Part shown: positions 244 to 20,790 of the stretch, in pieces
Layout of the letters: every line of letters begins with the position of its first letter
How positions within the stretch are numbered: the stretch's first letter is position 1
Origin: a virus
Direction: 5' to 3' (one strand)
IMG/VR virus record: IMGVR_UViG_3300045988_179859
Length of the DNA stretch: 64,000 nucleotides
Notes under the pieces: model-generated
The model's database searches: none
Told to the model about the DNA's origin: nothing
Seen by the model: the letters and a program-made list of their open reading frames with translations, nothing else
Translations under genes and position numbers: made by a program

Positions 244-395
244 CAACTCGTTTACGAAATCCCACCACGAGAAATTTTCCCTCGATTTCGCAATAACCTT
301 ATGGAAGATTAGTCGACGAGGACGGAACAGGCAGCCGTCGCACCCTAGCGGTTTTAAAGAGATGTGGGAGGGTCATCCCACCGGGGCTAATCGAA

Positions 396-5552: not shown

Positions 5553-7775
5553 TTATTCGTTCCAGATTTTATCGTTCAAGAAATCTTTCAACGTTGGTAA
5601 CGCTTTAGACGAACGCCAAATATCATATCGTTTTAATTGATCGTCTTTGAAATCTTTGCTCCATGATCCAATCATATAATTTGTAGGCGTTTTGTTCATA
5701 GACGGATCGCTTTCAACTTTTGTTTTAGAGCTCAATTGGAAATTCGCAAGCGAATTGTCCATATAGTTGAGTTCTGGGAATGTGACGGTCTTAATCGATG
5801 TTTTATCGAGTGGAATTTGATCGGCACTCAAACCAGAACCGATTTCTCTAACAGTGTCAGGTTTTGCGAAGTCTGATGTATCTTTTCCATCATTGAAGGC
5901 TTTCATAATAGCTACGAAGATGTCAGACCGTGTAGTTTGATCGGCGCTAATCCAATGGTCGGGCTCATTCGGTGAATCGTACCCTGTCCAGACACTAACG
6001 GCTGTATTCTTCGTACCACCACTCATCCACGAATCACTAGCTGATTGTTCAGGTCGAGGAACGCCGTCAGATTCATCATAAGCAACTGTACCTGTTTTGA
6101 CAAAGTAGCCTTTATATTCAGGAATTTTAGCGGATTTTGCGGAGCCGTCATCTTGAGGAACACCTTCAAGCATTTTCGCTAAGATGTACGCGGTTGATGC
6201 TTTCATTGCGCGTTTCTCATTCGGTTTGATCGTTTTAATGGATCCATCTGAAAACTCTAATTTATCGATATAATTAGGTTCGCGATAGATTCCGCCGTTA
6301 GCAATAGCACCGAAGCCTGCTGCGAAGTCAGCTGTTGACAAGTTCAATCCGAGAGCATCGGCACCGCCGTACGTTTCCTTGACATCCATATTGAGATTTT
6401 TCAAGAAGTTTTTAGCGAGATTCGATCCAGTAACTGTGTCGAGCATACGAATAGCCGGAGTATTAAGCGAAAGTCGTAAGGCTTTCTTCATATCAACAAC
6501 CCCGTACGTATATCCGCCGTAATTTTGTGCGACAATGTTCGTACCCGGATATTGGTACGGACTCGAATCCAATCTGTAATTAGATCCTAATTGTAGATAT
6601 TCGATACCCGGTGCATAATCGATAAACGGTTTAACGGTTGAACCGCTCGATCTGGTACGTTGCGTTGCACGGTTGTAACTGTACGGATTTTCTGATTTTT
6701 GATTTCGTGAACCAGACTGTGCGATAACAGCACCTGTTTGAGGGTTCGTTATCGTTACGGCGACTTGTTGTCCGTCGTTACGGTAGTATTTTGGATCGGA
6801 TACGATTGATTGAAGTTTTGAGTCTTCCGCTGAATCCATATTTGTGTAAATCTGAATCGGTGCCTTTTCAAGATCGTAACCGAGATCTTTTAATTGCTGA
6901 AGCGTCGATGTCACATAGGCGTTATGTTCAGAAACTTTAGAGAGTACTTCTTTATTGCGCCAATAACGTTCTTTTAAGCCATCAGTTACGTTGATCTTTT
7001 TAGCGGCTTCGTATTCTTTTTTTGTTAACAAATCATTCGAATAAGCCACGTAAAGAACAATGTTTTTTCTACGATTGGCTTCTTCAGGGTGATCGTAAGC
7101 GTTATATCCTGACGGGGCTTGTCCGAGCCCTGCGATATAGGCTAACCGAGCGATATTTTCCGGTGTTCGTTCAGACATTTGGTCTAACGATTTACCATAA
7201 TAGGTGATCGCTACAGTGTTTGCTCCGAATGACCCTTCACCCATAGCGATTTTGTTGACGTACCATTCAAGAATTTGTTTCTTATTCCAGTTTGTATCTA
7301 ACTGAAGTGCGAGCCAGAATTCTTTAATTTTACGTTCAACTGTTCTATCTTTAACATCACTAGAGAAGGCGACGTTCTTGATTAGCTGTTGTTCGATAGA
7401 AGAACCGCCACGACGTCCTCGTGAAAGAATAGCGTTTGCGAGACCTTTAATCGAAACACCTCGATCTTGGAAGAAGGTGTCGTCTTCTGTGTTTAACAGA
7501 AGTTTCACATACAAATCGGGCAATTTATCGTATTTGATGTAATTTCGACGGATGTCTGTTTGTGACCAAATAACATTGCCTTTTTTGTCGTACATGTTGG
7601 ATGTTGCTTCGCTACGGAGCATTTTTTCCGTAATGACAGGTGCTTTGTCGATAATGGTTTTCACCTTATAGGCTACAATAGGTGTGGCAATTAAGATTGT
7701 TACGCCTATTGTTATTGCGCTATATTTGAGAAACTTTTTTGCGAAAAAGCCTATTTTAGATAATACTGTTTTCAA
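5553..7775 (-). CDS. class A penicillin-binding protein (GT51 transglycosylase plus transpeptidase)
   Basis: N-terminal TM; GT51 motifs EDDTFFQDRG, GGSSIEQQLIKN and RKIKE; transpeptidase motifs STVK, SLN and KTGT. Confidence 0.9.
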   Translation of the reverse strand: MKTVLSKIGFFAKKFLKYSAITIGVTILIATPIVAYKVKTIIDKAPVITEKMLRSEATSNMYDKKGNVIWSQTDIRRNYIKYDKLPDLYVKLLLNTEDDTFFQDRGVSIKGLANAILSRGRRGGSSIEQQLIKNVAFSSDVKDRTVERKIKEFWLALQLDTNWNKKQILEWYVNKIAMGEGSFGANTVAITYYGKSLDQMSERTPENIARLAYIAGLGQAPSGYNAYDHPEEANRRKNIVLYVAYSNDLLTKKEYEAAKKINVTDGLKERYWRNKEVLSKVSEHNAYVTSTLQQLKDLGYDLEKAPIQIYTNMDSAEDSKLQSIVSDPKYYRNDGQQVAVTITNPQTGAVIAQSGSRNQKSENPYSYNRATQRTRSSGSTVKPFIDYAPGIEYLQLGSNYRLDSSPYQYPGTNIVAQNYGGYTYGVVDMKKALRLSLNTPAIRMLDTVTGSNLAKNFLKNLNMDVKETYGGADALGLNLSTADFAAGFGAIANGGIYREPNYIDKLEFSDGSIKTIKPNEKRAMKASTAYILAKMLEGVPQDDGSAKSAKIPEYKGYFVKTGTVAYDESDGVPRPEQSASDSWMSGGTKNTAVSVWTGYDSPNEPDHWISADQTTRSDIFVAIMKAFNDGKDTSDFAKPDTVREIGSGLSADQIPLDKTSIKTVTFPELNYMDNSLANFQLSSKTKVESDPSMNKTPTNYMIGSWSKDFKDDQLKRYDIWRSSKALPTLKDFLNDKIWNE

Positions 7776-7793
7776 ATCGTAATCACCTTCTTT

Positions 7794-9011
7794 CTATTGT
7801 GGAACGCCCGGTCTTGTGATAGACGGCGCGGTTGGTCTAACGTGTGTTTCACTAGATCGTGTTTCTGTTTCACGTGAAACACTCGATGACGGAGGTGTGT
7901 TTTCTGTAGATTCGCTCGATGACGGCGGTGTCGGTTGTACTTGTTTTTTAATATTAACCGTGACCGTCATTGTGGAACCTTTTACGATTTTCTCGTATTT
8001 ATTTTTAGCAGGAGTCTGTTCAAGAATCGTATCGTATGGTTTTGATGATACGTCTTTTTCGACAATCTTCAGAGTGATCTGATTTGCATCAGCCCATTGT
8101 TGAAGGTCTGATAATTTCTTATTAGTGAAGTCGGGCAAATCAATGATTAAACCTTTTAAGCGATCTTGTTCAGCTACGAATTGTTTTTCGAATTGTTCGA
8201 ATTCGGCTTTTGCTTCTTGATCGTTTAAGTAATTCTTATAGTTTTCAGTTGCGTGTTCGTTTGATTTGACAGCGCTTGAACTATTTTGAATAAGTGGTTT
8301 GATTTTATTTTCGATATAGTTCCATTTATAGTGTAATTTTGCAATCATTTGATTGAGATAATTTACGTGTTCTGAAACCATGTCTGTTTTTAATTTATAT
8401 TTATCTATTTGATAGTCTTTGTTGATTGCATCGAGAACAATTGCATATTGATTTGAATCAGATGCTAGTTGTTGGAGAGACGTGTAAATGTTTTCAGCGG
8501 CTTTGTGTCCGTCTTCTATGAGATACGGGTAAAGTACGTCGAAACTATTTTTAAGATAATCTTGAATCGACTTCAATGTTTCTTTTTCAGGGATGTGTCC
8601 GTCTTTTGTGAGAACGTTGAATTTATCAAGAACTTCGTATAGTTTGTTGATTTCATCGTAGTTTTTTAAAGACGCTTGATAACTCTTTGGGAGTTTTTTA
8701 TGGAGTGATCGCAATTCGTCCATGTTCGCCGACGACGGCGTTCCTTTAAAGTTGTGAGTATTGACATCCCATACGAGTGCTTCTTGCTTGTTATAGGCTT
8801 GAATGAGATCTTTTGTGTGATCATCAGCGGTTAATAATTCTGGCGTTAAATCAGCAAGAGGTGTCTTTGAAACACGTTTCCATGTTTTTGTCGTATCAAA
8901 ACGTTGGATAAGTGTATAAGCGATAACACCTGTTGTTGCAACACTTGCGGTTATCAACGCAAGACTACTAGCAAGAACGATTCGTTTTTTAATGTTCTTT
9001 CGTTTTTTCAC
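7794..9011 (-). CDS. membrane-anchored protein with C-terminal PASTA-like domain and a Pro/Ser/Thr-rich tail
   Basis: N-terminal TM; a PASTA-like beta3-alpha segment near the C terminus (…KPYDTILEQTPAKNKYEKIVKGSTMTVTVNIKK). Confidence 0.6.
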   Translation of the reverse strand: MKKRKNIKKRIVLASSLALITASVATTGVIAYTLIQRFDTTKTWKRVSKTPLADLTPELLTADDHTKDLIQAYNKQEALVWDVNTHNFKGTPSSANMDELRSLHKKLPKSYQASLKNYDEINKLYEVLDKFNVLTKDGHIPEKETLKSIQDYLKNSFDVLYPYLIEDGHKAAENIYTSLQQLASDSNQYAIVLDAINKDYQIDKYKLKTDMVSEHVNYLNQMIAKLHYKWNYIENKIKPLIQNSSSAVKSNEHATENYKNYLNDQEAKAEFEQFEKQFVAEQDRLKGLIIDLPDFTNKKLSDLQQWADANQITLKIVEKDVSSKPYDTILEQTPAKNKYEKIVKGSTMTVTVNIKKQVQPTPPSSSESTENTPPSSSVSRETETRSSETHVRPTAPSITRPGVPQ

Positions 9012-13826: not shown

Positions 13827-13843
13827 GTTTTCGGGCAAATTCT

Positions 13844-14131
13844 GTTCCATTTTGTACCACTTTTTTGAATTTTGTGGAACGCTCGAAACGCAACTGGCAG
13901 TAGGTGTTTCGTTACACCCAAAAACACGTTCCACCTACGAGGGGGTCAAACTTTTTATTTATATTTTTTAATTTTTTGTATATTTTGTATATTACTCTTT
14001 TTAAATATATTATATATACACATAAAAAGTGGAACAAGTGGAATAAATCTCGATAGCTCTCACCACGTAAGGGTTTCGGATGTTCCACTTTTTAAAAAAT
14101 CAGTGGAACGCATGTGGAACAAGTGGAACAA
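13844..14131. repeat. candidate replication origin: 9 GTGGAAC/GTTCCAC iterons flanking an AT-rich unwinding element (13950-14025)
   Basis: copies at 13845, 13875, 13928, 14030, 14039, 14083, 14105, 14115 and 14125; three copies phased 10 bp apart. Confidence 0.6.
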
Positions 14132-14145
14132 AAAGATGTTTCAAA

Positions 14146-14409
14146 TTATTTGATTTTCAAAATATGTTTCACATCAATATTTGTTGCGTACTTTTTATTT
14201 TTCGCTGGTTCGTATGACACCTCTACGAGGTCGCCGTGTTTGAGTGTGTAAATAAAGTTCAACAAAGTTTCTTTGTCTTTTGGAATATACATCGAAGCAT
14301 TACAAAAATCGTTCGAGTTTACTCGATGCAAGCGAAGCGATAAGGAGTAGTCTTCTTTTTTATTTTTAATAATACGATTGACACGTACAATTTTAAATGT
14401 ATTTTTCAA
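14146..14409 (-). CDS. hypothetical protein (87 aa)
   Basis: ORF only. Confidence 0.4.
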   Translation of the reverse strand: MKNTFKIVRVNRIIKNKKEDYSLSLRLHRVNSNDFCNASMYIPKDKETLLNFIYTLKHGDLVEVSYEPAKNKKYATNIDVKHILKIK

Positions 14410-14421
14410 AACACTACCTCC

Positions 14422-15114
14422 TTATCGAATGAGAAAGATTCGAACGAGTAGGTTCAAAATAGTAGCAAGTCCAACGATGAGCGCCAGAGTTTCTAATCGT
14501 TTCATCCATTTATAGCGTCGAGTACCCGATTCGCCCGCGAGACGCATTAGGAAGTTTCTCGTATCGTGAGAACTCGGTCGCGAGGATTCTGTTTCTTTTT
14601 TTGTTGTGATGAATTTCGGCACGATTTTCTTTACTTGATTTTGCTTATCGCGTTTTTTAAGTTTTTCGTAAATTGGATCGTAAATCTTTTCTGCGGAGTT
14701 GGGGTCGATCGGATCACCATAAGTATCAAAGGCGAAGTATTTTTGTTTGTATACTTGAGCCGTCATATCAGGCAGTTCGTCTTTTGATCTGTCGATATTT
14801 ACAACGTTTGAATAAAATTGATGTTTGTCGGTGATGTTGTACACAGTTCCAACATCAAAAGTCATATCTGATACAATGGTGTCGGGTTGCGTTGCAGTAA
14901 TGATAGAATATTCGCCAACGTATGCTTCTTTAAAGAGAATAACGTTTTGGCTAATCCATGAGGTATCGGGTAACGAATCAATAGATTCGACCCAACCGCC
15001 AACTTGTCCGTCGAGAACCATATCTACTAAGTTAGACGGAATAGGTCCTTCTTGTACGATTTGTGTGACAGTTCTCCCGTCAACAATTCTTTTATTGTTT
15101 GTAAGTTTAATCAT
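14422..15114 (-). CDS. hypothetical protein with C-terminal TM (230 aa)
   Basis: ORF, hydrophobic C terminus. Confidence 0.5.
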   Translation of the reverse strand: MIKLTNNKRIVDGRTVTQIVQEGPIPSNLVDMVLDGQVGGWVESIDSLPDTSWISQNVILFKEAYVGEYSIITATQPDTIVSDMTFDVGTVYNITDKHQFYSNVVNIDRSKDELPDMTAQVYKQKYFAFDTYGDPIDPNSAEKIYDPIYEKLKKRDKQNQVKKIVPKFITTKKETESSRPSSHDTRNFLMRLAGESGTRRYKWMKRLETLALIVGLATILNLLVRIFLIR

Positions 15115-15342
15115 AATTTTTTACACTTCTTTCTGGATGTTATGTAATCACATCAGAAAACGACCGTGAGAAAATCACGGTCTGTAGTGAATTAACTTGG
15201 TCGTTCTGTAATTAATTATTGACTGATCTTTTATGCTATGCTATAATTATTCTATTAGAAGTCATCGAAGGTGCTATTCGTACAACTAGGTGGCCTTTTT
15301 TTGTAGCCGAATTGTCCTTAAATTTTGCACCTTTTCGATTTT

Positions 15343-15354
15343 TGTGATATAATA
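15343..15354 (+). promoter_or_regulatory. element consensus extended -10 TGTGATATAATA
   Basis: 40 nt upstream of CDS 15394. Confidence 0.5.
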
Positions 15355-15393
15355 AGGCTATCTAAAAATTAGTCACGAAAGGACTCTTATAAA

Positions 15394-16611
15394 ATGTTAG
15401 AATATATTGCCGGCATGGATGTCGGAAACGGATATTTAAAACTAGGTATTAACGATAAAGTAGAAGTATTTCCATCAATTGCTGTGAACCGTTACTCTGT
15501 TCACAATGATTTGAAATTGACGCTTGACGATAGCGCTTCGTTTGCGAATGACGCTTTTAATCAAATGGATGCGTCATTCTCAAGTCCTCTCGTAAACGAC
15601 ACAACGCGTCGTATCTTCGGTAGTCGTGCTCTTGCAAGTGGTGAACCATTAGAAGAATTTGACGTATTCTCGCGTAAGTCAAAAGCCGACGATGATCTGT
15701 CAGGGGTTCTCATTCTAGGGTCTCTTGCAAGTCGTGCTATTCACGATTACTACGCAGAACATAAAGCGTTGCCTACTGAGATTCTTCCCGTAGATGTATG
15801 GCTTTCGACAGCTCTTCCGATTGCCGAATATGAAAAACACCATGCAGATTACGCTCATAAATTGAAAAATAGTGGATCTGCACACCTTGTTACGATTCAT
15901 AATTTTGCGCAAACAATCACTATCGCAATTACTATCAAAGAAGTATATATTGCGAACGAAGGTGAGGCTGCCCAATACGGTTTGCGTCACGCGCAGTCTA
16001 ATTTCCTTGACTTGATCGAAGCTGATGCGAAGAAACGTGCGGTCAATGGTGAATTGGATGATGTGACGGGTTACGATTTGGTGCATGCGGAGAATACTCT
16101 CGGCATCGATATTGGTGAAGGGACTGTCGATTTCGCGGTATTCACTAACGGTAAATTCAACCAAGATGCGTCAACGTCATTCTTGAAAGGATACGGAAAC
16201 GTACTCGAGGCGGCACTTGATCGTTTGATCGAAGAAGGATATACTTACAAGACACGTAAAGAGCTCTCTGAGTTTATCAATAAAGAACCTAGCAAGTTGA
16301 GTCGTAACAAGTATACGCACGTAGCTGGTGTTGTAGACGAAGAATCATATCGTTTCGCACAGCAACTTCGTAATGAGATTTCTAAAATCTATACTCGTGT
16401 GGGTGCAACGAATGAAGTTATTTTCGTATACGGTGGTGGTTCAGGTGGTCTTGAACAACACCTCTATAACGAGATCGTGAATCTTTTGTCTGATTTCAAT
16501 AGCGGTGGAACTCCAATCATTTATTTGAACGCTGCATATTCACGTTTCTTGAACGAACACGGTTTGTATAGTCTTGCAAAAGGTCTATATAATATCGCGC
16601 ATAAAGACTAA
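15394..16611 (+). CDS. actin-like ATPase (ParM/Alp family)
   Basis: phosphate-1 motif GMDVGNGYLK and phosphate-2 motif GIDIGEGTVDF. Confidence 0.8.
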   Translation: MLEYIAGMDVGNGYLKLGINDKVEVFPSIAVNRYSVHNDLKLTLDDSASFANDAFNQMDASFSSPLVNDTTRRIFGSRALASGEPLEEFDVFSRKSKADDDLSGVLILGSLASRAIHDYYAEHKALPTEILPVDVWLSTALPIAEYEKHHADYAHKLKNSGSAHLVTIHNFAQTITIAITIKEVYIANEGEAAQYGLRHAQSNFLDLIEADAKKRAVNGELDDVTGYDLVHAENTLGIDIGEGTVDFAVFTNGKFNQDASTSFLKGYGNVLEAALDRLIEEGYTYKTRKELSEFINKEPSKLSRNKYTHVAGVVDEESYRFAQQLRNEISKIYTRVGATNEVIFVYGGGSGGLEQHLYNEIVNLLSDFNSGGTPIIYLNAAYSRFLNEHGLYSLAKGLYNIAHKD

Positions 16612-16620
16612 TAGGGGGCT

Positions 16621-17160
16621 TTGCATATGTCGGTTTACAAAACAATCGGCATTTGTCTAAACTTACTACTACAAATTGCCAGATGGTCGGCTATTTACGG
16701 ATTAATGTTATTAACCGGTCATCTATTAAGGCTCTCTACGAATTGGTCGCTTATGGATATCTATATAGGTATGGTTGTGTTCTGTATCGGTTTTACGGGT
16801 GATCGTTTATTGTTTGCGATACGCTCTGGATTTAACGTGAAGACGTGGGCACTATTAAGTGATTATGTGTGTCTCGCGTTATCGTATAAAATGATGTCAC
16901 TGTTAAGTGGAATCTCAAACGAAACATTTTGGCAGTATTTCGTACTTGCGACGGTATCGATGATCGGGTTAGATGTTCTTTTACAACGTTATATCGGATG
17001 GCTTTTCAAAAACAAGAGGTCACTCTTTAAATTGTTTAGCCACAATACGTTCGTAGTGGACGATCGTTTGATTCATGTCAGTGAATATGAGTTAGATGGA
17101 ACATTTTCAACCTATATGCAAATTTTGGAAACGAAAGCGGGTGTTTCAAATGAACTATAA
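16621..17160 (+). CDS. polytopic membrane protein (179 aa)
   Basis: 4-5 predicted TM segments. Confidence 0.5.
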   Translation: MHMSVYKTIGICLNLLLQIARWSAIYGLMLLTGHLLRLSTNWSLMDIYIGMVVFCIGFTGDRLLFAIRSGFNVKTWALLSDYVCLALSYKMMSLLSGISNETFWQYFVLATVSMIGLDVLLQRYIGWLFKNKRSLFKLFSHNTFVVDDRLIHVSEYELDGTFSTYMQILETKAGVSNEL

Positions 17161-17365
17161 TGCAGATGATATTCGAAATCAGGAATTCCATTTGTCTTTT
17201 CGTGGTTATAAGCCACAAGAAGTTGAGGGATTTCTCGATAAAATTGCAGAAGATTATGTAACCGTTTCTGATTATGAAGAATTGGTTCTTGAGAAGAAAG
17301 AATTAGAAGAAACGGTTGATAAGCTTCGTGAAAAAGTTCGATATTTGGAATCGACTTCGTTATAG
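17150..17365 (+). CDS. DivIVA/GpsB N-terminal domain protein (71 aa)
   Basis: DIRNQEFHLSFRGYKPQEVEGFLDKIAEDY matches the DivIVA/GpsB lipid- and PBP-binding domain; I chose the start at 17150 rather than 17096. Confidence 0.7.
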   Translation: MNYNADDIRNQEFHLSFRGYKPQEVEGFLDKIAEDYVTVSDYEELVLEKKELEETVDKLREKVRYLESTSL

Positions 17366-17373
17366 GTGACGAT

Positions 17374-18165
17374 ATGAATGTTTTAGAATATGTGATTGAT
17401 TTCCCGAAATCGTATGGCGAAGATCGTTTGGCTATCGGAAACGATGTCGTTTGCGCCATTGATGGGTCAAGCCCGATCAAACAAATAGCAGTACTACCTT
17501 TTCATTCTCAAGCTGAATGGTTGGCGTCAGCTGTAGCCGGTGCCGTGTCAGTGTGTGTGAATGGTACGATTCCTGAATATGCACAAATGGCTGTTGATTC
17601 TATTAAGTTTCGATATGCTGAAATGCTTGAAAATTTTCCAGATGAGATGAAACCTTGTGCTGTTTTAGCCGGCGTGCAAGTTATTGATGATAAATTACAC
17701 GCTTATGCGATTGGTGATTGTTCCGCAGTTATTGAAAAAATAGACGGTACGATTGAAATCGTAACGGATAATCGTATTCGTCGATTTTCAGATGTCACTA
17801 AAGCGATGCGTAATAAAGCAATCGCCTGTGGTGAAGATCCTGTTAAAGCCGTTCAAGAACAAATGACAAAAAACAGACATGTTATGAACACGCCTGATGG
17901 TTTTTGGACAGTTGCTTTAAAAGGTCATTTCGAAGACGAATTTGTGGAACGTATCTACGATGTAGATGATGTGAAACAATGCTTAGTCTTCTCGGATGGA
18001 TTTGAACGAGTATTTCTTCATGAGTTGGTTTCTATAGAAGCTGTACTCAATGGAAATGTTAGTTTGAATTCAGCATTAAAGGTTCTTCGAAAATGGGAAC
18101 GTAACGCTACAAACTTAGATGTCAAACGGCATGATGACGCTTGTGCGATTTTAATCGAACTATAA
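17374..18165 (+). CDS. possible PP2C-family (SpoIIE/RsbU-like) Ser/Thr phosphatase
   Basis: motifs AIDGSS, IGDCS, FSDGFE and terminal RHDDACAILI in PP2C order. Confidence 0.5.
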   Translation: MNVLEYVIDFPKSYGEDRLAIGNDVVCAIDGSSPIKQIAVLPFHSQAEWLASAVAGAVSVCVNGTIPEYAQMAVDSIKFRYAEMLENFPDEMKPCAVLAGVQVIDDKLHAYAIGDCSAVIEKIDGTIEIVTDNRIRRFSDVTKAMRNKAIACGEDPVKAVQEQMTKNRHVMNTPDGFWTVALKGHFEDEFVERIYDVDDVKQCLVFSDGFERVFLHELVSIEAVLNGNVSLNSALKVLRKWERNATNLDVKRHDDACAILIEL

Positions 18166-18193
18166 GAAAAAGGATAACTTTGTAGTTATCCTT

Positions 18194-18946
18194 TTATTGT
18201 TGCCAAATGTTATATTCTTGTTTAAAGGCGTCTTTGATTTTTTGATTGGCGTCTTTATAGGTTGTTTTCTTAACTAGACTTCCCTGAACGACAATTCGAC
18301 CACGAGCATAGTTATCGGTGCATGTAATCAATGTTACGAGTGGGTCAGAATTTGGTCCTGGTTCATCCAAAACACTTGTTTCGGTTGGTTCAATTTTGCG
18401 CACGGATATAATTGTGTATGTGTATACATACTCTTTATCGGTCATGTAGATTTGTTGACCTTCTTGTGCGTGTTCAAGTGGTGAGAATAATAAACTAGTC
18501 GCACCCCAGATTCCGAAGACGTGGTGGCTGGCAAGACCGTAGTTACCTTGACCCATGACTTGATTTTCTTTTGTTGTTCCCGCTCCGTAGTAGAGACTTT
18601 GATCGTCAACTCCTTTGAAGATTGGCATGTTGATTCCTAAGTCGGGAATTGCGATACCTGCAATAACAGGGAGATCTTCAGGTGCGGGTGGTGGTGAGCT
18701 AATAACGCGATCGGGGTCAAGAGGTTTGACTTCTTCCCAGTTGTAATTGGCTGGGGCTTCTTCTGCGTTTTTCTTAAGAGTTTCTTTCGGTACGTTTGCG
18801 ACAATGAGTTTATTCGTTCGCGATGCCATTTTCGAATGAGCTATCGGTTTGTTGAACATAAGTGCAAACGCAAGACCGACTGTAAGTGCTAAATTTATGA
18901 GGATTAAGGCGATAAGTATGAGTCGCCTTGATTTAGATACCGGCAT
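18194..18946 (-). CDS. sortase
   Basis: N-terminal TM; catalytic TLITCT motif; conserved His upstream. Confidence 0.85.
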   Translation of the reverse strand: MPVSKSRRLILIALILINLALTVGLAFALMFNKPIAHSKMASRTNKLIVANVPKETLKKNAEEAPANYNWEEVKPLDPDRVISSPPPAPEDLPVIAGIAIPDLGINMPIFKGVDDQSLYYGAGTTKENQVMGQGNYGLASHHVFGIWGATSLLFSPLEHAQEGQQIYMTDKEYVYTYTIISVRKIEPTETSVLDEPGPNSDPLVTLITCTDNYARGRIVVQGSLVKKTTYKDANQKIKDAFKQEYNIWQQ

Positions 18947-19049: not shown

Positions 19050-19565
19050 ATGCGAAAAGAAAATGATGCACGTCTTGCGATACGTGTACCAAAAGAAACT
19101 GCGGAATTTATTAAGTACCAAGCAGGTAAAGAAGGAATCTCTCAAAAAGATTATACGCTTCGAGCGATTAATTTCTATAATGACTTTCAATATATGGCTA
19201 AAGAGGGTTATGCTGACCCGTTAGCTCAAATGACCGCTATTCGTCATCGTTCGGAGAAAATCAGACAGTGGTGCCAAAAATTAGATATTGACATGGCTGA
19301 TTTCTATTTCGATGCTCTGAATTTTTATTTAGATGCATTGACGTTATCCGATGGTCAACCAGACACAATGAGTATGGTGACACTGAATACCTTGTTGCGT
19401 ACAATTTCGGCTCAGTTAGATTCTGTGGAAACGAAGATTGACACGCAAACAAATATCGCTATTAATGGATTTAGTTCATTTGCACGTATCAGTGCGGGTG
19501 CGTCTTATTTGATAGACGATGTGGATGATGGTGTGTTACCTGAAACGAAAGTAAATATGAGGTAA
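19050..19565 (+). CDS. hypothetical protein, possible RHH-type DNA-binding N terminus
   Basis: ORF with upstream TTGTTATAAT promoter. Confidence 0.5.
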   Translation: MRKENDARLAIRVPKETAEFIKYQAGKEGISQKDYTLRAINFYNDFQYMAKEGYADPLAQMTAIRHRSEKIRQWCQKLDIDMADFYFDALNFYLDALTLSDGQPDTMSMVTLNTLLRTISAQLDSVETKIDTQTNIAINGFSSFARISAGASYLIDDVDDGVLPETKVNMR

Positions 19566-19569
19566 GGAA

Positions 19570-20790
19570 ATGAGTTTAGCAACATTAGATGCTATCAATA
19601 AAGCAAAAGAAAAAGCTTTAAAAGAAAAACAAGAAGCTGAAAAGAAAGTTCTTGTTGAGCCAAAAGAGGAATCCGTTGAAAAGAAACCGAGTGTGGTCGT
19701 TGAGAAAAAACCGACGGAGACGGTTGATGCAAAACCTGTCGAGAAAGTTGCTGTTGAAAAACCTGTAGAAACGTCTACGGGATTGGTTGAAACGAAAGAT
19801 GATGTTGATTGGGAACATAAATACAAAGAACTTGAAGCAAAAATGAAACGTCAGGCGCAAGCTTCAGCAAAACAGTTAGACGATGTGCAAAAGAAAGCAG
19901 CGACTAGAGTTCTTGAACAGCAACGAATTAATGAATCACTTACAAAAGAAGTAGATCATTGGAAGAACCAAGTGAAAGAGCGTGACGCATTTGACTTCGG
20001 TTCGAATGATACATTTAATCATCAGTTTAAGTTTGTTGGTGCAAATACCATGTTTGGAAAAAACTGGAAAAATCCATTTAAAAACTTAGATCGCGAAGGC
20101 GCTCGGGTGGATATTCATTTGCGAGCATTACACCCTGCTTTTGATTTTATTGCTAGTTTAAAAGGGCGTGAAGTTCAAATTAGTAAGAATTTCAAAACGA
20201 AAATCTCCCCGGAGAATTCGTTCTATCGGGGGACTGGTGATCAGCCGAATAGACGGGCGCTTGTGTACTTTGTTATGATGACCTTCGCTTATCAATTCAA
20301 TTTAGATGATCTTGTGAAATATGCATGGTATTGGGTGAAGGCTGAACATACGGAATTGGCGTCAAAACCAGATGCTATTCGTGAATTAGTGCAAGGTAGT
20401 GAATCCAATGGATCGAAAGCTTTTGACTTTTATGTATTAGCTTTAGCTTATCGTGATGTGTGTGAGGAAAAACGACGCTATGAATTAAGTGAAAATGAGA
20501 TCAGTACGCAATTGTATGATCTTCGTGACATGATTGATAAACAAGCTGAATTATCACGAACTATTCGTGATGGTGTTTTGACAGATGAATTATTGACGGC
20601 GCTTCTTGTAGGTCGTGAATTAGGTATTCACAATCATGCTCTTCGAAGTGGTTTGAAACCGTCTGATTTGAAAGAATATTTAGCTGCACGTGTGCCTGAT
20701 ACCGAGACCGAAATTGCACGGACAATTATGCATGAAGCGAAGTCTTATGCGTCTGAAGTTGCTCGTCGTGACGCTAAAGCTGGAAAATAA
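19570..20790 (+). CDS. hypothetical protein with Lys/Glu-rich N terminus (406 aa)
   Basis: ORF only. Confidence 0.55.
   Translation: MSLATLDAINKAKEKALKEKQEAEKKVLVEPKEESVEKKPSVVVEKKPTETVDAKPVEKVAVEKPVETSTGLVETKDDVDWEHKYKELEAKMKRQAQASAKQLDDVQKKAATRVLEQQRINESLTKEVDHWKNQVKERDAFDFGSNDTFNHQFKFVGANTMFGKNWKNPFKNLDREGARVDIHLRALHPAFDFIASLKGREVQISKNFKTKISPENSFYRGTGDQPNRRALVYFVMMTFAYQFNLDDLVKYAWYWVKAEHTELASKPDAIRELVQGSESNGSKAFDFYVLALAYRDVCEEKRRYELSENEISTQLYDLRDMIDKQAELSRTIRDGVLTDELLTALLVGRELGIHNHALRSGLKPSDLKEYLAARVPDTETEIARTIMHEAKSYASEVARRDAKAGK

What the first reader, a model, noticed from the sequence alone, without database searches (positions are those of the whole stretch)
15394..18165. Actin-like ATPase clustered with a polytopic membrane protein, a GpsB/DivIVA-domain protein and a PP2C-like phosphatase, but no ParR
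The actin-like protein has ParM/Alp phosphate motifs but lacks the usual small ParR adaptor or a repeat centromere. It is followed by a 4-5-TM protein and a 71-aa protein whose sequence DIRNQEFHLSFRGYKPQEVEGFLD is the signature of the GpsB/DivIVA N-domain, then a protein with PP2C-ordered motifs ending …RHDDACAILI. In Firmicutes, GpsB docks class A PBPs and is regulated by PASTA Ser/Thr kinases and PP2C phosphatases. This element encodes its own PBP1A, PASTA protein, GpsB-like protein, PP2C, actin and flotillin. Together they form a putative self-contained envelope or division-site targeting system. It could position the plasmid or its T4SS at the septum.
Basis: partly seen in the sequence, partly recalled or inferred. 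Interest (0 to 1): 0.8.

Follow-up and report, generated by a model that had tools for sequence, protein, structure and literature searches.

The report
Adaptor-less plasmid actin with add-on genes
An uncultured human-gut conjugative megaplasmid carries a plasmid-segregation actin that has lost its usual DNA-binding adaptor gene and is always followed by an orphan membrane protein, while the DivIVA-like and PP2C-like genes beside it are optional add-ons, not parts of a fixed division-site machine.

Summary
All four gene calls hold. A (15394-16611) is a ParM/Alp-type actin. B (16627-17160) is a 4-TM protein. C (17150-17365) is a 71-aa DivIVA/GpsB N-domain-only protein. D (17374-18165) has a PP2C/PPM fold with intact metal-binding residues. 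They form one tightly packed operon and all are under purifying selection.

The proposed self-contained envelope or division system is not supported. C is a 233-bp single-gene indel, present in 4 of 11 near-identical elements sampled through the actin. D is absent from sister lineages, catalytically dead in one, and elsewhere sits in unrelated neighbourhoods. The element's PBP1A has an arginine-free 15-19-residue cytoplasmic tail with no GpsB-docking motif. The PASTA protein has no kinase domain.

The "no ParR" point is real and sharper than stated. In 51 of 54 loci with more distant actin relatives, a small conserved adaptor gene lies next to the actin. It occurs in 0 of 28 loci of this clade, including the whole 64-kb window. 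There the actin is always followed by B, an orphan family with only 3 clusters among 1.84 billion representative proteins.

Best reading: a core actin-membrane-protein pair (interaction inferred, not shown) plus accessory host-modulating genes. This is a new variant of type II partition and of moderate interest.

The parts
15219..15353 (+). Two sigma-70-like promoter candidates upstream of the actin gene. The first is TTGACT-17-TATAAT at 15219-15247. The second is TTTGCA-18-TATAAT at 15324-15353. Both have an extended TG.
   Evidence: Consensus scan, 11/12 and 10/12 matches. These are consensus matches only, and the number of sites in the region is no higher than in shuffles.
15394..16611 (+). 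A: ParM/Alp-family actin-like ATPase, 405 aa. It is a backbone gene of the element.
   Evidence: Pfam ALP_N and MreB-like_C above cutoff. PHROG partition protein 4.6e-29. 441 homologues. ATPase motifs invariant. dN/dS 0.01-0.03.
16627..17160 (+). B: clade-restricted 4-TM membrane protein, 177 aa. Its tail after TM4 starts with the motif WLFxNxRSLFKLFSHN. It always follows A immediately.
   Evidence: No family hit. Four hydrophobic segments, and the most conserved 15-aa window is 124-140. Only 3 clusters among 1.84e9 representatives. Present after A in all 28 in-group loci. dN/dS 0.10-0.18. Ribosome-binding site AGGGGG.
17150..17365 (+). C: 71-aa protein made only of a DivIVA/GpsB N-terminal domain (short helix, loop SFRGY, long helix). 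It is a single-gene cassette that is variably present.
   Evidence: Pfam DivIVA 4.6e-13 and TIGR03544 5e-13. PDB GpsB and DivIVA N-domains at about 1e-5. AF2 model has helix 5-16 and helix 22-70. Indel relative to L004. dN/dS 0.18.
17374..18165 (+). D: divergent cytoplasmic PPM/PP2C-fold phosphatase, 263 aa, with intact metal-binding residues. It is an accessory gene.
18167..18195 (.). Hairpin AAAAAGGATAACTTTGTAGTTATCCTTTT between the convergent D and sortase genes. It is probably a bidirectional terminator that closes the A-B-C-D operon.
   Evidence: Terminator scan reports a 12-pair stem. Sequence read directly.

Best explanation
SHOWN. The four genes form one compact operon. Promoter candidates lie at 15219-15353. 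B overlaps C by 11 nt and C-D are 8 nt apart. A terminator hairpin lies at 18167-18195. The operon sits on a Gram-positive-type conjugative element with GC about 0.39, a MobL relaxase, a 1282-aa coupling protein, a D5-type primase-helicase, a sortase and an adhesin. The element recurs as contigs of about 230-255 kb in human-gut metagenomes and has no cultured relative.

The operon is a mosaic.

1. A is a ParM/Alp-type partition actin and is extremely constrained (dN/dS 0.01-0.03).
2. More distant relatives of A (30-55% identity; Bacillaceae, Paenibacillus, Lactobacillaceae plasmids and metagenomic loci) have an adjacent small adaptor gene. The adaptor has a conserved N-domain (W..Q..S...YGxGD) and a short hydrophobic C-terminal tail. 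In this clade the adaptor gene is gone.
3. In this clade an orphan 4-TM protein, B, always follows A. This holds across lineages whose synonymous sites are saturated.
4. D is a catalytically intact PP2C-fold enzyme that comes and goes.
5. C is a DivIVA/GpsB N-domain-only mini-protein carried on a 233-bp cassette that only some near-identical elements have.

INFERRED. A still forms nucleotide-driven filaments used for maintenance or positioning of the element. B has taken over the partner role, tethering or nucleating the filament at the membrane through its conserved cytoplasmic juxtamembrane helix. This would resemble the way other actin-fold proteins bind short cytoplasmic peptides of membrane proteins (PilM-PilN, MreB-RodZ; my knowledge, not tested here).

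C and D are accessory 'morons' riding on the operon's promoter. They most likely act on the host rather than on A. C keeps the DivIVA membrane loop (SFRGY). It also keeps GpsB-like residues: Y20/E26/D30 align with BsGpsB Y25/D31/D35. It lacks any higher-order oligomerisation domain, so it could compete with or piggy-back on host DivIVA/GpsB. D could reverse host Ser/Thr phosphorylation.

The confidence of 0.6 applies to the mosaic reading as a whole (A-B core pair, C and D accessory). The specific step that B is the physical partner of A is less certain, about 0.4.
For: Gene identities.

Operon layout.

Element type and recurrence.

Adaptor family. Adaptors were found beside the actin on pMP118, on an L. 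reuteri plasmid, and in Evansella and metagenomic loci. The adaptor-domain HMM finds an adjacent adaptor in 51 of 54 out-group loci. It finds none in 28 in-group loci, including all six frames of the 64-kb window.

B. It follows A in every in-group locus. Across lineages B is 45-52% identical while A is 87-88%. B has dN/dS 0.10-0.18. It is an orphan family. Its most conserved segment is the tail just after TM4.

C. Indel. Always between B and D when present. dN/dS 0.18.

D. Accessory and degenerate states.

GpsB pocket residues and docking motif: the paper PMC6335420 and the alignment.
Against: No direct evidence that A and B interact. Co-folding could not be run and too few lineages exist for covariation analysis.

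Only about 64 kb of an element of about 235 kb was searched for the adaptor, so it could be encoded elsewhere.

A conserved array of GTGGAAC iterons lies 1.3 kb upstream (13843-14129). A highly conserved 171-aa protein with an RHH-like N-terminal pattern lies at 19050-19565 (dN/dS 0.02). Together these could be an unrecognised centromere and adaptor.

The stable B-C-D order wherever C is present, and the known link between GpsB/DivIVA and PP2C/PASTA-kinase signalling, leave room for a functional C-D connection.

The host is unknown, so whether it has GpsB, DivIVA or StkP cannot be checked.
Confidence: 0.6

Rival explanations
1. First reader's model. A, B, C and D, together with the element's PBP1A, PASTA protein and flotillin, form one self-contained envelope or division-site targeting system. 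The system would position the plasmid or its T4SS at the septum.
For: All components are encoded on the element. A-D are co-transcribed. C retains the DivIVA membrane loop and GpsB-like Y/E/D residues. The A-B-C-D order is stable wherever C is present.
Against: C is present in only 4 of 11 near-identical actin-sampled loci and is a clean single-gene indel. D is absent, interrupted or catalytically dead in sister lineages that keep A, B, PBP1A and the rest of the backbone. D homologues elsewhere are not linked to an actin. The PBP1A tail lacks any Arg or docking motif. No kinase was found.
Confidence: 0.1
2. Conventional type II partition with an unrecognised adaptor and centromere. A different DNA-binding protein would link A to the GTGGAAC iteron array. 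Candidates are the 171-aa RHH-like protein at 19050-19565 and the 87-aa protein abutting the iterons. B would then be unrelated membrane cargo.
For: Seven of the window's 14 GTGGAAC copies lie in 13874-14129. They sit in two opposed clusters around an AT-rich core. The same architecture is conserved in three diverged lineages. The 171-aa protein is as constrained as A (dN/dS 0.02-0.06, 82-83% identity across lineages). Its N-terminus reads like a ribbon-helix-helix; this is my reading of the sequence, backed only by a weak PHROG hit at 0.004. The literature notes that ParR proteins have no diagnostic motif and can lie on either side of ParM (PMC12270681).
Against: The 171-aa family has no detectable similarity to the cognate adaptor family (hhalign probability 0.1), to Pfam/NCBIfam families or to PDB sequences. 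It is separated from A by B, C, D and an inverted sortase gene. The iterons flank an AT-rich core next to the MerR-like/D5 primase-helicase genes, which fits a replication origin at least as well. B's strict adjacency to A across saturated divergence is left unexplained.
Confidence: 0.25
3. A is not a segregation motor here. Instead it would organise replication or DNA transfer at the membrane, as reported for the prophage actin AlpC in viral DNA replication. B would be its membrane dock near the T4SS or replisome.
For: A-B lies between the replication genes (MerR-like/D5 helicase, iterons) and the transfer region (topoisomerase, relaxase, T4CP). A precedent exists for a mobile-element actin needed for DNA replication rather than partition (PMC4446434, title and abstract).
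Against: No direct evidence. AlpC still has a DNA-binding adaptor, AlpA (my knowledge). The family's relatives look like ordinary plasmid partition operons.
Confidence: 0.12

Closest known systems
Type II (ParMRC / Alp) plasmid partition systems, e.g. R1 ParM-ParR-parC, pSK41 ParM, pLS20 Alp7A-Alp7R and B. thuringiensis pBMB67 ParM
   Same: A is an actin-fold ATPase of the ParM/StbA-Alp family on a large low-copy-type plasmid-like element. ATPase motifs are intact. Relatives have an adjacent small adaptor on either side, as described for ParR. The only solved structure detectable by sequence is pBMB67 ParM (4xe7/4xe8/4xhp, E 1e-5 to 0.02).
   Different: No adaptor gene lies next to A or anywhere in 64 kb. 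A polytopic membrane protein occupies the adaptor's downstream position in every member of the clade. No repeat array lies directly upstream of the operon. A is at most 36% identical to any actin in 72,556 sequenced plasmids. Similarity to Alp7A itself was not tested.
DivIVA (B. subtilis) and GpsB (B. subtilis, L. monocytogenes, S. pneumoniae)
   Same: C has the N-terminal DivIVA/GpsB domain. It carries the DivIVA-type loop SFRGY (DivIVA F17/R18 membrane loop; my knowledge). Its Y20/E26/D30 align with the PBP-binding Y25/D31/D35 of BsGpsB.
   Different: At 71 aa, C stops after one coiled-coil helix. It lacks the DivIVA C-terminal domain and the GpsB C-terminal trimerisation domain. It falls below the GpsB equivalog cutoff (47.9 against 91 bits). 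It is encoded on a mobile element as a variable cassette. tblastn found no significant match in PLSDB plasmids. In INPHARED phages the only match was one marginal hit covering about half of C, in an unannotated 4-kb Listeria record.
Bacterial PPM/PP2C Ser/Thr phosphatases (Stp1, PstP, PrpC/PhpP, tPphA, PppA)
   Different: Sequence identity is only 10-16%, and D falls below the Pfam gathering score. There is no membrane anchor and no partner kinase gene. The 80-member family is known only from metagenomic contigs, many of them 150-255 kb. The PPM fold also includes non-protein-phosphatase hydrolases such as SidD and Lem3, so the substrate is open.
'Hodor' conjugative megaplasmids of the human gut (bioRxiv 2026, PMC12934698)
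   Same: Both are large uncultured gut conjugative elements with sortases and ParM/StbA. Both have been partly catalogued as huge phages. One relative of this element is an IMG/VR UViG of 229,674 bp.
   Different: Hodors have GC 44.6-47.1%, a Rep_3 initiator and ParA/ParB. The methods headings also mention an HD-nuclease relaxase. This element has GC about 0.39, a D5-type primase-helicase and a MobL relaxase. It therefore appears to be a different family.

Membership tests
ParM/Alp actin-like partition ATPase (type II par) | Actin-fold ATPase with phosphate-1, phosphate-2 and adenosine motifs, and a family HMM match | tested here: met
   Pfam ALP_N and MreB-like_C above the gathering score. 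PHROG partition protein 4.6e-29. Invariant DxGNGYxK, DIGEGTxD and GGG.
ParM/Alp actin-like partition ATPase (type II par) | Adjacent gene for a small DNA-binding adaptor (ParR/AlpR-like) | tested here: not met
   The adaptor-domain HMM finds one in 51 of 54 out-group loci. It finds none in 28 in-group loci or in six-frame ORFs of the 64-kb window. The gene after A is a 4-TM protein.
ParM/Alp actin-like partition ATPase (type II par) | Centromere-like repeat array next to the operon | tested here: inconclusive
   No repeat array lies in 15115-15393. A conserved GTGGAAC iteron array lies 1.3 kb upstream at 13843-14129. It sits beside the replication genes and may be oriV.
ParM/Alp actin-like partition ATPase (type II par) | Nucleotide-dependent filament formation and plasmid stabilisation | not testable with these tools
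   Needs biochemistry or genetics.
DivIVA | N-terminal lipid-binding DivIVA domain | tested here: met
   Pfam DivIVA 49.7 bits (cutoff 28) and TIGR03544 48.5 bits (cutoff 22). PDB 2wuj at 1e-5 with SFRGY aligned. AF2 model shows helix-loop-long helix.
DivIVA | Long C-terminal coiled-coil/tetramerisation domain | tested here: not met
   Only profile positions 3-59 of 131 are matched. The protein ends at residue 71. The 71-aa length is conserved in nearly all of the 31 homologues found.
GpsB | Equivalog-level HMM score and the C-terminal trimerisation domain | tested here: not met
   NF010725 GpsB scores 47.9 bits against a cutoff of 91, matching profile positions 4-73 of 111 only.
GpsB | PBP-tail-binding residues Tyr25/Asp31/Asp35 (BsGpsB numbering) | tested here: inconclusive
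   These align to Y20/E26/D30 in C (residues taken from PMC6335420). The D-to-E change and the lack of any SRxxR(R/K)-type partner in the window leave function open.
PPM/PP2C phosphatase | PPM fold | tested here: met
PPM/PP2C phosphatase | Conserved acidic metal-binding motifs | tested here: met
   Invariant G15-E16-D17, D30-G31, S207-D208-G209 and D254-D255 in 36 sequences. Assigning these to PPM motifs I, II, VIII and XI rests on my knowledge.
PPM/PP2C phosphatase | Pfam family membership at the curated threshold | tested here: not met
   PP2C_2 scores 20.6 bits against a gathering score of 24. Some homologues do carry PF13672.
PASTA-kinase / PP2C / GpsB signalling module | Cognate Ser/Thr kinase encoded with the phosphatase | tested here: not met
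   The PASTA protein (7794-9011) has only a TM segment, a coiled region and one PASTA domain. No Pkinase hit among the 39 larger ORFs scanned with Pfam.

The most novel reading that the evidence does not exclude
In this megaplasmid clade a ParM-type cytomotive filament has been rewired from a DNA-adaptor partner to a dedicated polytopic membrane partner (B). That would create a membrane-tethered plasmid actin. In some strains it would be supplemented by a mobile-element-encoded mini-DivIVA/GpsB (C) and a PP2C (D). These would direct it to, or reprogramme, the host's division and cell-wall machinery.
Probability: 0.2. Interest if true: 0.8.

Novelty: new variant of a known kind. Interest (0 to 1): 0.5.

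Why it matters
Type II partition is defined by three parts: actin, DNA-binding adaptor and centromere. Here the adaptor gene is missing from the locus across a whole clade and an orphan membrane protein sits in its place. That would be a natural experiment in how bacterial actin filaments change cargo or anchor.

A mobile-element-encoded DivIVA/GpsB N-domain-only protein has no significant full-length match in 72,556 plasmids or 50,697 phage records. It is a candidate tool by which a plasmid manipulates host division or wall synthesis.

The data also show that gene clustering in one operon can be misleading without comparative genomics. Two of the four genes are dispensable add-ons.

Tried and rejected
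1. Near-identity DNA searches of 15000-18400 against plasmids and phages found nothing.

2. Two scans of GTDB species genomes did not identify a host. The actin query found no relative. The PBP1A query found only 27-28% matches in Jeotgalicoccus and Lacicoccus.

3. The 171-aa RHH-like protein (19050-19565) was tested as a hidden ParR. hhalign against the adaptor profile gave probability 0.1. There were no Pfam/NCBIfam hits and no PDB hits. It is rejected as a homologue of the cognate adaptor but kept as a weak rival.

4. Foldseek of the 71-aa C model against the PDB gave no hits. This is uninformative for a two-helix monomer. The sequence HMMs and the PDB sequence search settle the domain call.

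5. A scan for GpsB-docking motifs [STR]Rxx[RY][RK] near TM segments in 42 window ORFs found none.

6. An attempt to locate Alp7A on pLS20 for comparison picked the wrong gene. It was abandoned, so similarity to Alp7A was not tested.

7. The afdb50 fold library was unavailable.

8. The 'Hodor' megaplasmids were considered as the identity of the element. They were rejected on GC content and replication/partition gene content.

9. A-B co-folding was not run. Both structure-prediction jobs went to D and C, and a fused A-B construct would not have been an accepted input.
Full report
**What is there**

Between 15394 and 18165 the + strand carries four tightly packed genes.

- A, 15394-16611, 405 aa.
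- B, ATG at 16627 with an AGGGGG ribosome-binding site, ending at 17160, 177 aa.
- C, 17150-17365, 71 aa, overlapping the end of B by 11 nt.
- D, 17374-18165, 263 aa, starting 8 nt after C.

Two strong sigma-70-like promoter candidates lie at 15219-15247 and 15324-15353. A 12-pair hairpin at 18167-18195 separates D from a convergent sortase gene. The four genes therefore form one transcription unit.

**Gene identities**

A hits Pfam ALP_N (1.3e-7) and MreB-like_C (8.2e-9), both above threshold. It hits PHROG 691 'partition protein' at 4.6e-29 over its full length. The actin-fold ATPase motifs are invariant in 24 homologues. The only solved structure reachable by sequence is B. thuringiensis pBMB67 ParM, and only weakly.

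B has no family hit in Pfam, NCBIfam or PHROGs. It has four hydrophobic segments. Read by the positive-inside rule (my inference), the topology is N-in/C-in with a 53-residue cytoplasmic tail.

C passes the curated cutoffs of Pfam DivIVA (49.7 bits) and TIGR03544 (48.5 bits). It does not pass the GpsB equivalog model (47.9 against 91 bits). It aligns to the solved N-domains of BsGpsB (4ug3, 6gp7) and BsDivIVA (2wuj) at about 1e-5. Its AF2 model is a short helix, a loop and a long helix.

**The element**

The window encodes:

- a MobL relaxase, a 1282-aa T4 coupling protein and a CHAP/lysozyme;
- a topoisomerase, a ClpB-like ATPase and a D5-type primase-helicase;
- a C5 methylase, a sortase and a GbpC/SSSPR adhesin;
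- PBP1A, a PASTA protein and a flotillin.

GC is about 0.39.

Nothing similar exists at DNA level in PLSDB or INPHARED. No species-representative genome has a close actin relative. Near-identical actin genes occur on human-gut metagenome contigs that repeatedly measure about 230-255 kb. One of these is catalogued in IMG/VR as a 229,674-bp viral genome.

This is most likely an uncultured conjugative megaplasmid. Circularity and host were not established. It differs from the recently described 'Hodor' gut megaplasmids in GC content and in its replication and partition genes.

**Comparative genomics of the four genes**

I collected 94 loci. Loci whose actin is at least 75% identical to A (27 loci plus the window) share one backbone order. 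On the - strand lie D5 helicase, a MerR-like gene, an 87-aa gene and a tail-anchored membrane gene. On the + strand lie A and B, then the sortase (- strand), then a 171-aa gene, a gene of about 400 aa and the topoisomerase.

The content between B and the sortase varies:

- A-B-C-D: window, L014-L021, L023, L024.
- A-B-D: L004, L022, L025, L026, L039.
- A-B-[TnpB-like IS]-D: L027.
- A-B plus a 212-aa D paralogue that has lost every metal-binding aspartate: L028.
- A-B only: L001-3, L029-32, L037, L038, L053.

Counting only loci sampled through the actin, C is present in 4 of 11 members of the close lineage.

Against L004, which is 96% identical in DNA, window bases 17141-17373 (exactly gene C) replace 10 bp.

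D homologues at 37-51% identity lie on other contigs of 150-255 kb in unrelated neighbourhoods. One locus has tandem paralogues. C homologues (31 found, 57-99% identical) always lie between B and D in the six loci read.

All four genes are under purifying selection. In window against L019, dN/dS is 0.01 for A, 0.10 for B, 0.18 for C and 0.09 for D.

A and B are therefore the conserved core. D and especially C are accessory.

**The missing adaptor**

On L. salivarius pMP118 and an L. reuteri plasmid, the actin homologue (33-35% identical) is followed by a hydrophilic protein of 122-129 aa. In Evansella and metagenomic relatives (about 50-55%), a protein of 169-182 aa with the same N-terminal signature lies just upstream.

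These adaptors share an N-domain (W..Q..S...YGxGD; alignment A4), a low-complexity linker and a short hydrophobic C-terminal tail. This layout matches ParR-type adaptors. The literature notes that ParR can lie on either side of ParM and has no diagnostic motif (PMC12270681).

An HMM of the N-domain finds an adjacent adaptor in 51 of 54 out-group loci. Two of the exceptions are truncated contigs and the third is an undetected small ORF. The HMM finds none in the 28 in-group loci or in any frame of the 64-kb window.

In its place every in-group locus has B. The B family has only three clusters among 1.84 billion representative proteins. Across lineages B is 45-52% identical while A is 87-88%. 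Its most conserved stretch is the segment WLFxNxRSLFKLFSHN just after TM4.

I infer, but could not test, that B is the filament's partner in this clade.

GpsB docks the cytoplasmic mini-domains of class A PBPs through an arginine-containing SRxxR(R/K)-type motif. The motif is bound by Tyr25, Asp31 and Asp35 (PMC6335420).

C keeps equivalent residues (Y20/E26/D30) and a DivIVA-like SFRGY loop. The element's PBP1A, however, has at most a 15-19-residue cytoplasmic tail (MKTVLSKIGFFAKKFLKYS) with no arginine. No ORF in the window has such a motif near a TM segment.

The PASTA protein is an extracellular PASTA protein without a kinase domain. No kinase domain was found among the ORFs scanned. PBP1A is retained in lineages that lack C and D.

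The integrated 'self-contained system' is therefore not supported. What remains plausible is that C and D act on the host's GpsB/DivIVA - Ser/Thr-kinase node. C lacks any higher-order oligomerisation domain, so it could compete with or ride on host proteins. D could reverse host phosphorylation. The PPM fold also includes deAMPylases and phosphocholine hydrolases, so D's substrate is open.

**Candidate centromere or origin**

Seven of the window's 14 GTGGAAC copies lie in 13874-14129. They form two opposed clusters around an AT-rich core. The same architecture is conserved in two other lineages.

The array sits between the MerR-like/D5 operon and the 87-aa gene. I read it as a probable oriV, but a centromere role is not excluded.

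The 171-aa protein at 19050-19565 is as constrained as A and has an RHH-like N-terminal pattern (my reading of the sequence). It shows no detectable similarity to the adaptor family or to anything in Pfam or the PDB.

**Verdict**

The operon is a mosaic. It has a core pair, an adaptor-less ParM/Alp actin plus an orphan membrane protein, which is a new variant of type II partition whose mechanism is inferred. It also has two accessory genes: a mini-DivIVA/GpsB cassette and a divergent PP2C. Neither has a close counterpart in sequenced plasmids or phages. Interest is moderate. The A-B pairing and the mobile mini-DivIVA merit experiments. The proposed integrated divisome-targeting machine is unlikely.

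Noticed in passing
window 13843-14129: An array of (A)GTGGAA(C/T) heptad iterons in two opposed clusters flanks an AT-rich core of about 80 bp. It lies between the MerR-like/D5 primase-helicase operon and the 87-aa gene. The same architecture occurs in L001 (8890-9235) and L029 (4570-4925). It is a probable oriV and a possible centromere.
   Followed up: partly
window 19050-19565 and 19570-20790: The 171-aa protein has an RHH-like N-terminus and is among the most constrained genes of the region (dN/dS 0.02-0.06). Its stop lies 4 nt before the start of a 406-aa protein of unknown function, ahead of the topoisomerase. No family, PDB or adaptor-profile similarity was found.
   Followed up: partly
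window 14422-15114 (-) and 14146-14409 (-): An operon transcribed divergently from the actin gene encodes a tail-anchored membrane protein and an 87-aa protein. The N-domain of the membrane protein varies from 110 to 239 aa between lineages, while a YK.KY.AF.T.GDPIDP segment and the C-terminal TM are conserved. The 87-aa protein is conserved. Neither has a family hit.
   Followed up: partly
window 311-388 (+): Rfam skipping-rope RNA motif (RF02924): 54.1 bits against a gathering score of 36.7, E 4e-10.
   Followed up: no
L028 7757-8395: In one lineage the gene at the D position is a 212-aa paralogue that has lost all PPM metal-binding residues. GEDR becomes NETR, DGSSP becomes SGISP, SDGFE becomes SNYYS and HDD becomes KDI. 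It is either a pseudo-phosphatase or a decaying gene.
   Followed up: partly
L027 1985-3319: A 444-aa TnpB/IS605-OrfB-like gene is inserted between B and D in an otherwise near-identical element, at the place where C normally sits. The TnpB assignment rests on my reading of the translation; no family scan was run.
   Followed up: no
L094 (IMGVR_UViG_3300045988_183301, 229,674 bp): A member of the A-B-only lineage is catalogued in IMG/VR as a viral genome. No capsid or terminase genes were seen in the 64-kb window, so this is probably a megaplasmid filed as a huge phage.
   Followed up: no
L037 and L038 (both on BNJT01001543.1, 390,697 bp): Two diverged copies of the whole backbone segment (actin 75% and 85% identical to A) lie about 280 kb apart on one long-read contig. 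Both are full of frameshifts. This may reflect assembly error, a co-integrate or a chimera.
   Followed up: no
window 5553-9011 (-): The element carries its own class A PBP with a very short, arginine-free cytoplasmic tail. It also carries a TM + coiled region + single-PASTA protein with a Ser/Thr/Pro-rich C-terminus and no kinase domain. The PBP, followed by a 363-368-aa gene with no recorded Pfam hit, is conserved in the sister lineage L001/L002.
   Followed up: partly
L011 6203-7795: Tandem paralogues (264 + 264 aa) of the D phosphatase family lie on another contig of about 255 kb, in a region with ArdC/MPTase-PolyVal, a helicase and a PC4-like gene. This suggests that the family is common accessory cargo of such elements.
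   Followed up: no
L006 3467-10704: In one Bacillaceae-like relative, the adaptor-actin pair is followed directly by a type IV pilus cluster: prepilin peptidase, pilins, PilB/PilT/PilC-like ATPases and platform, and PilM.
   Followed up: no
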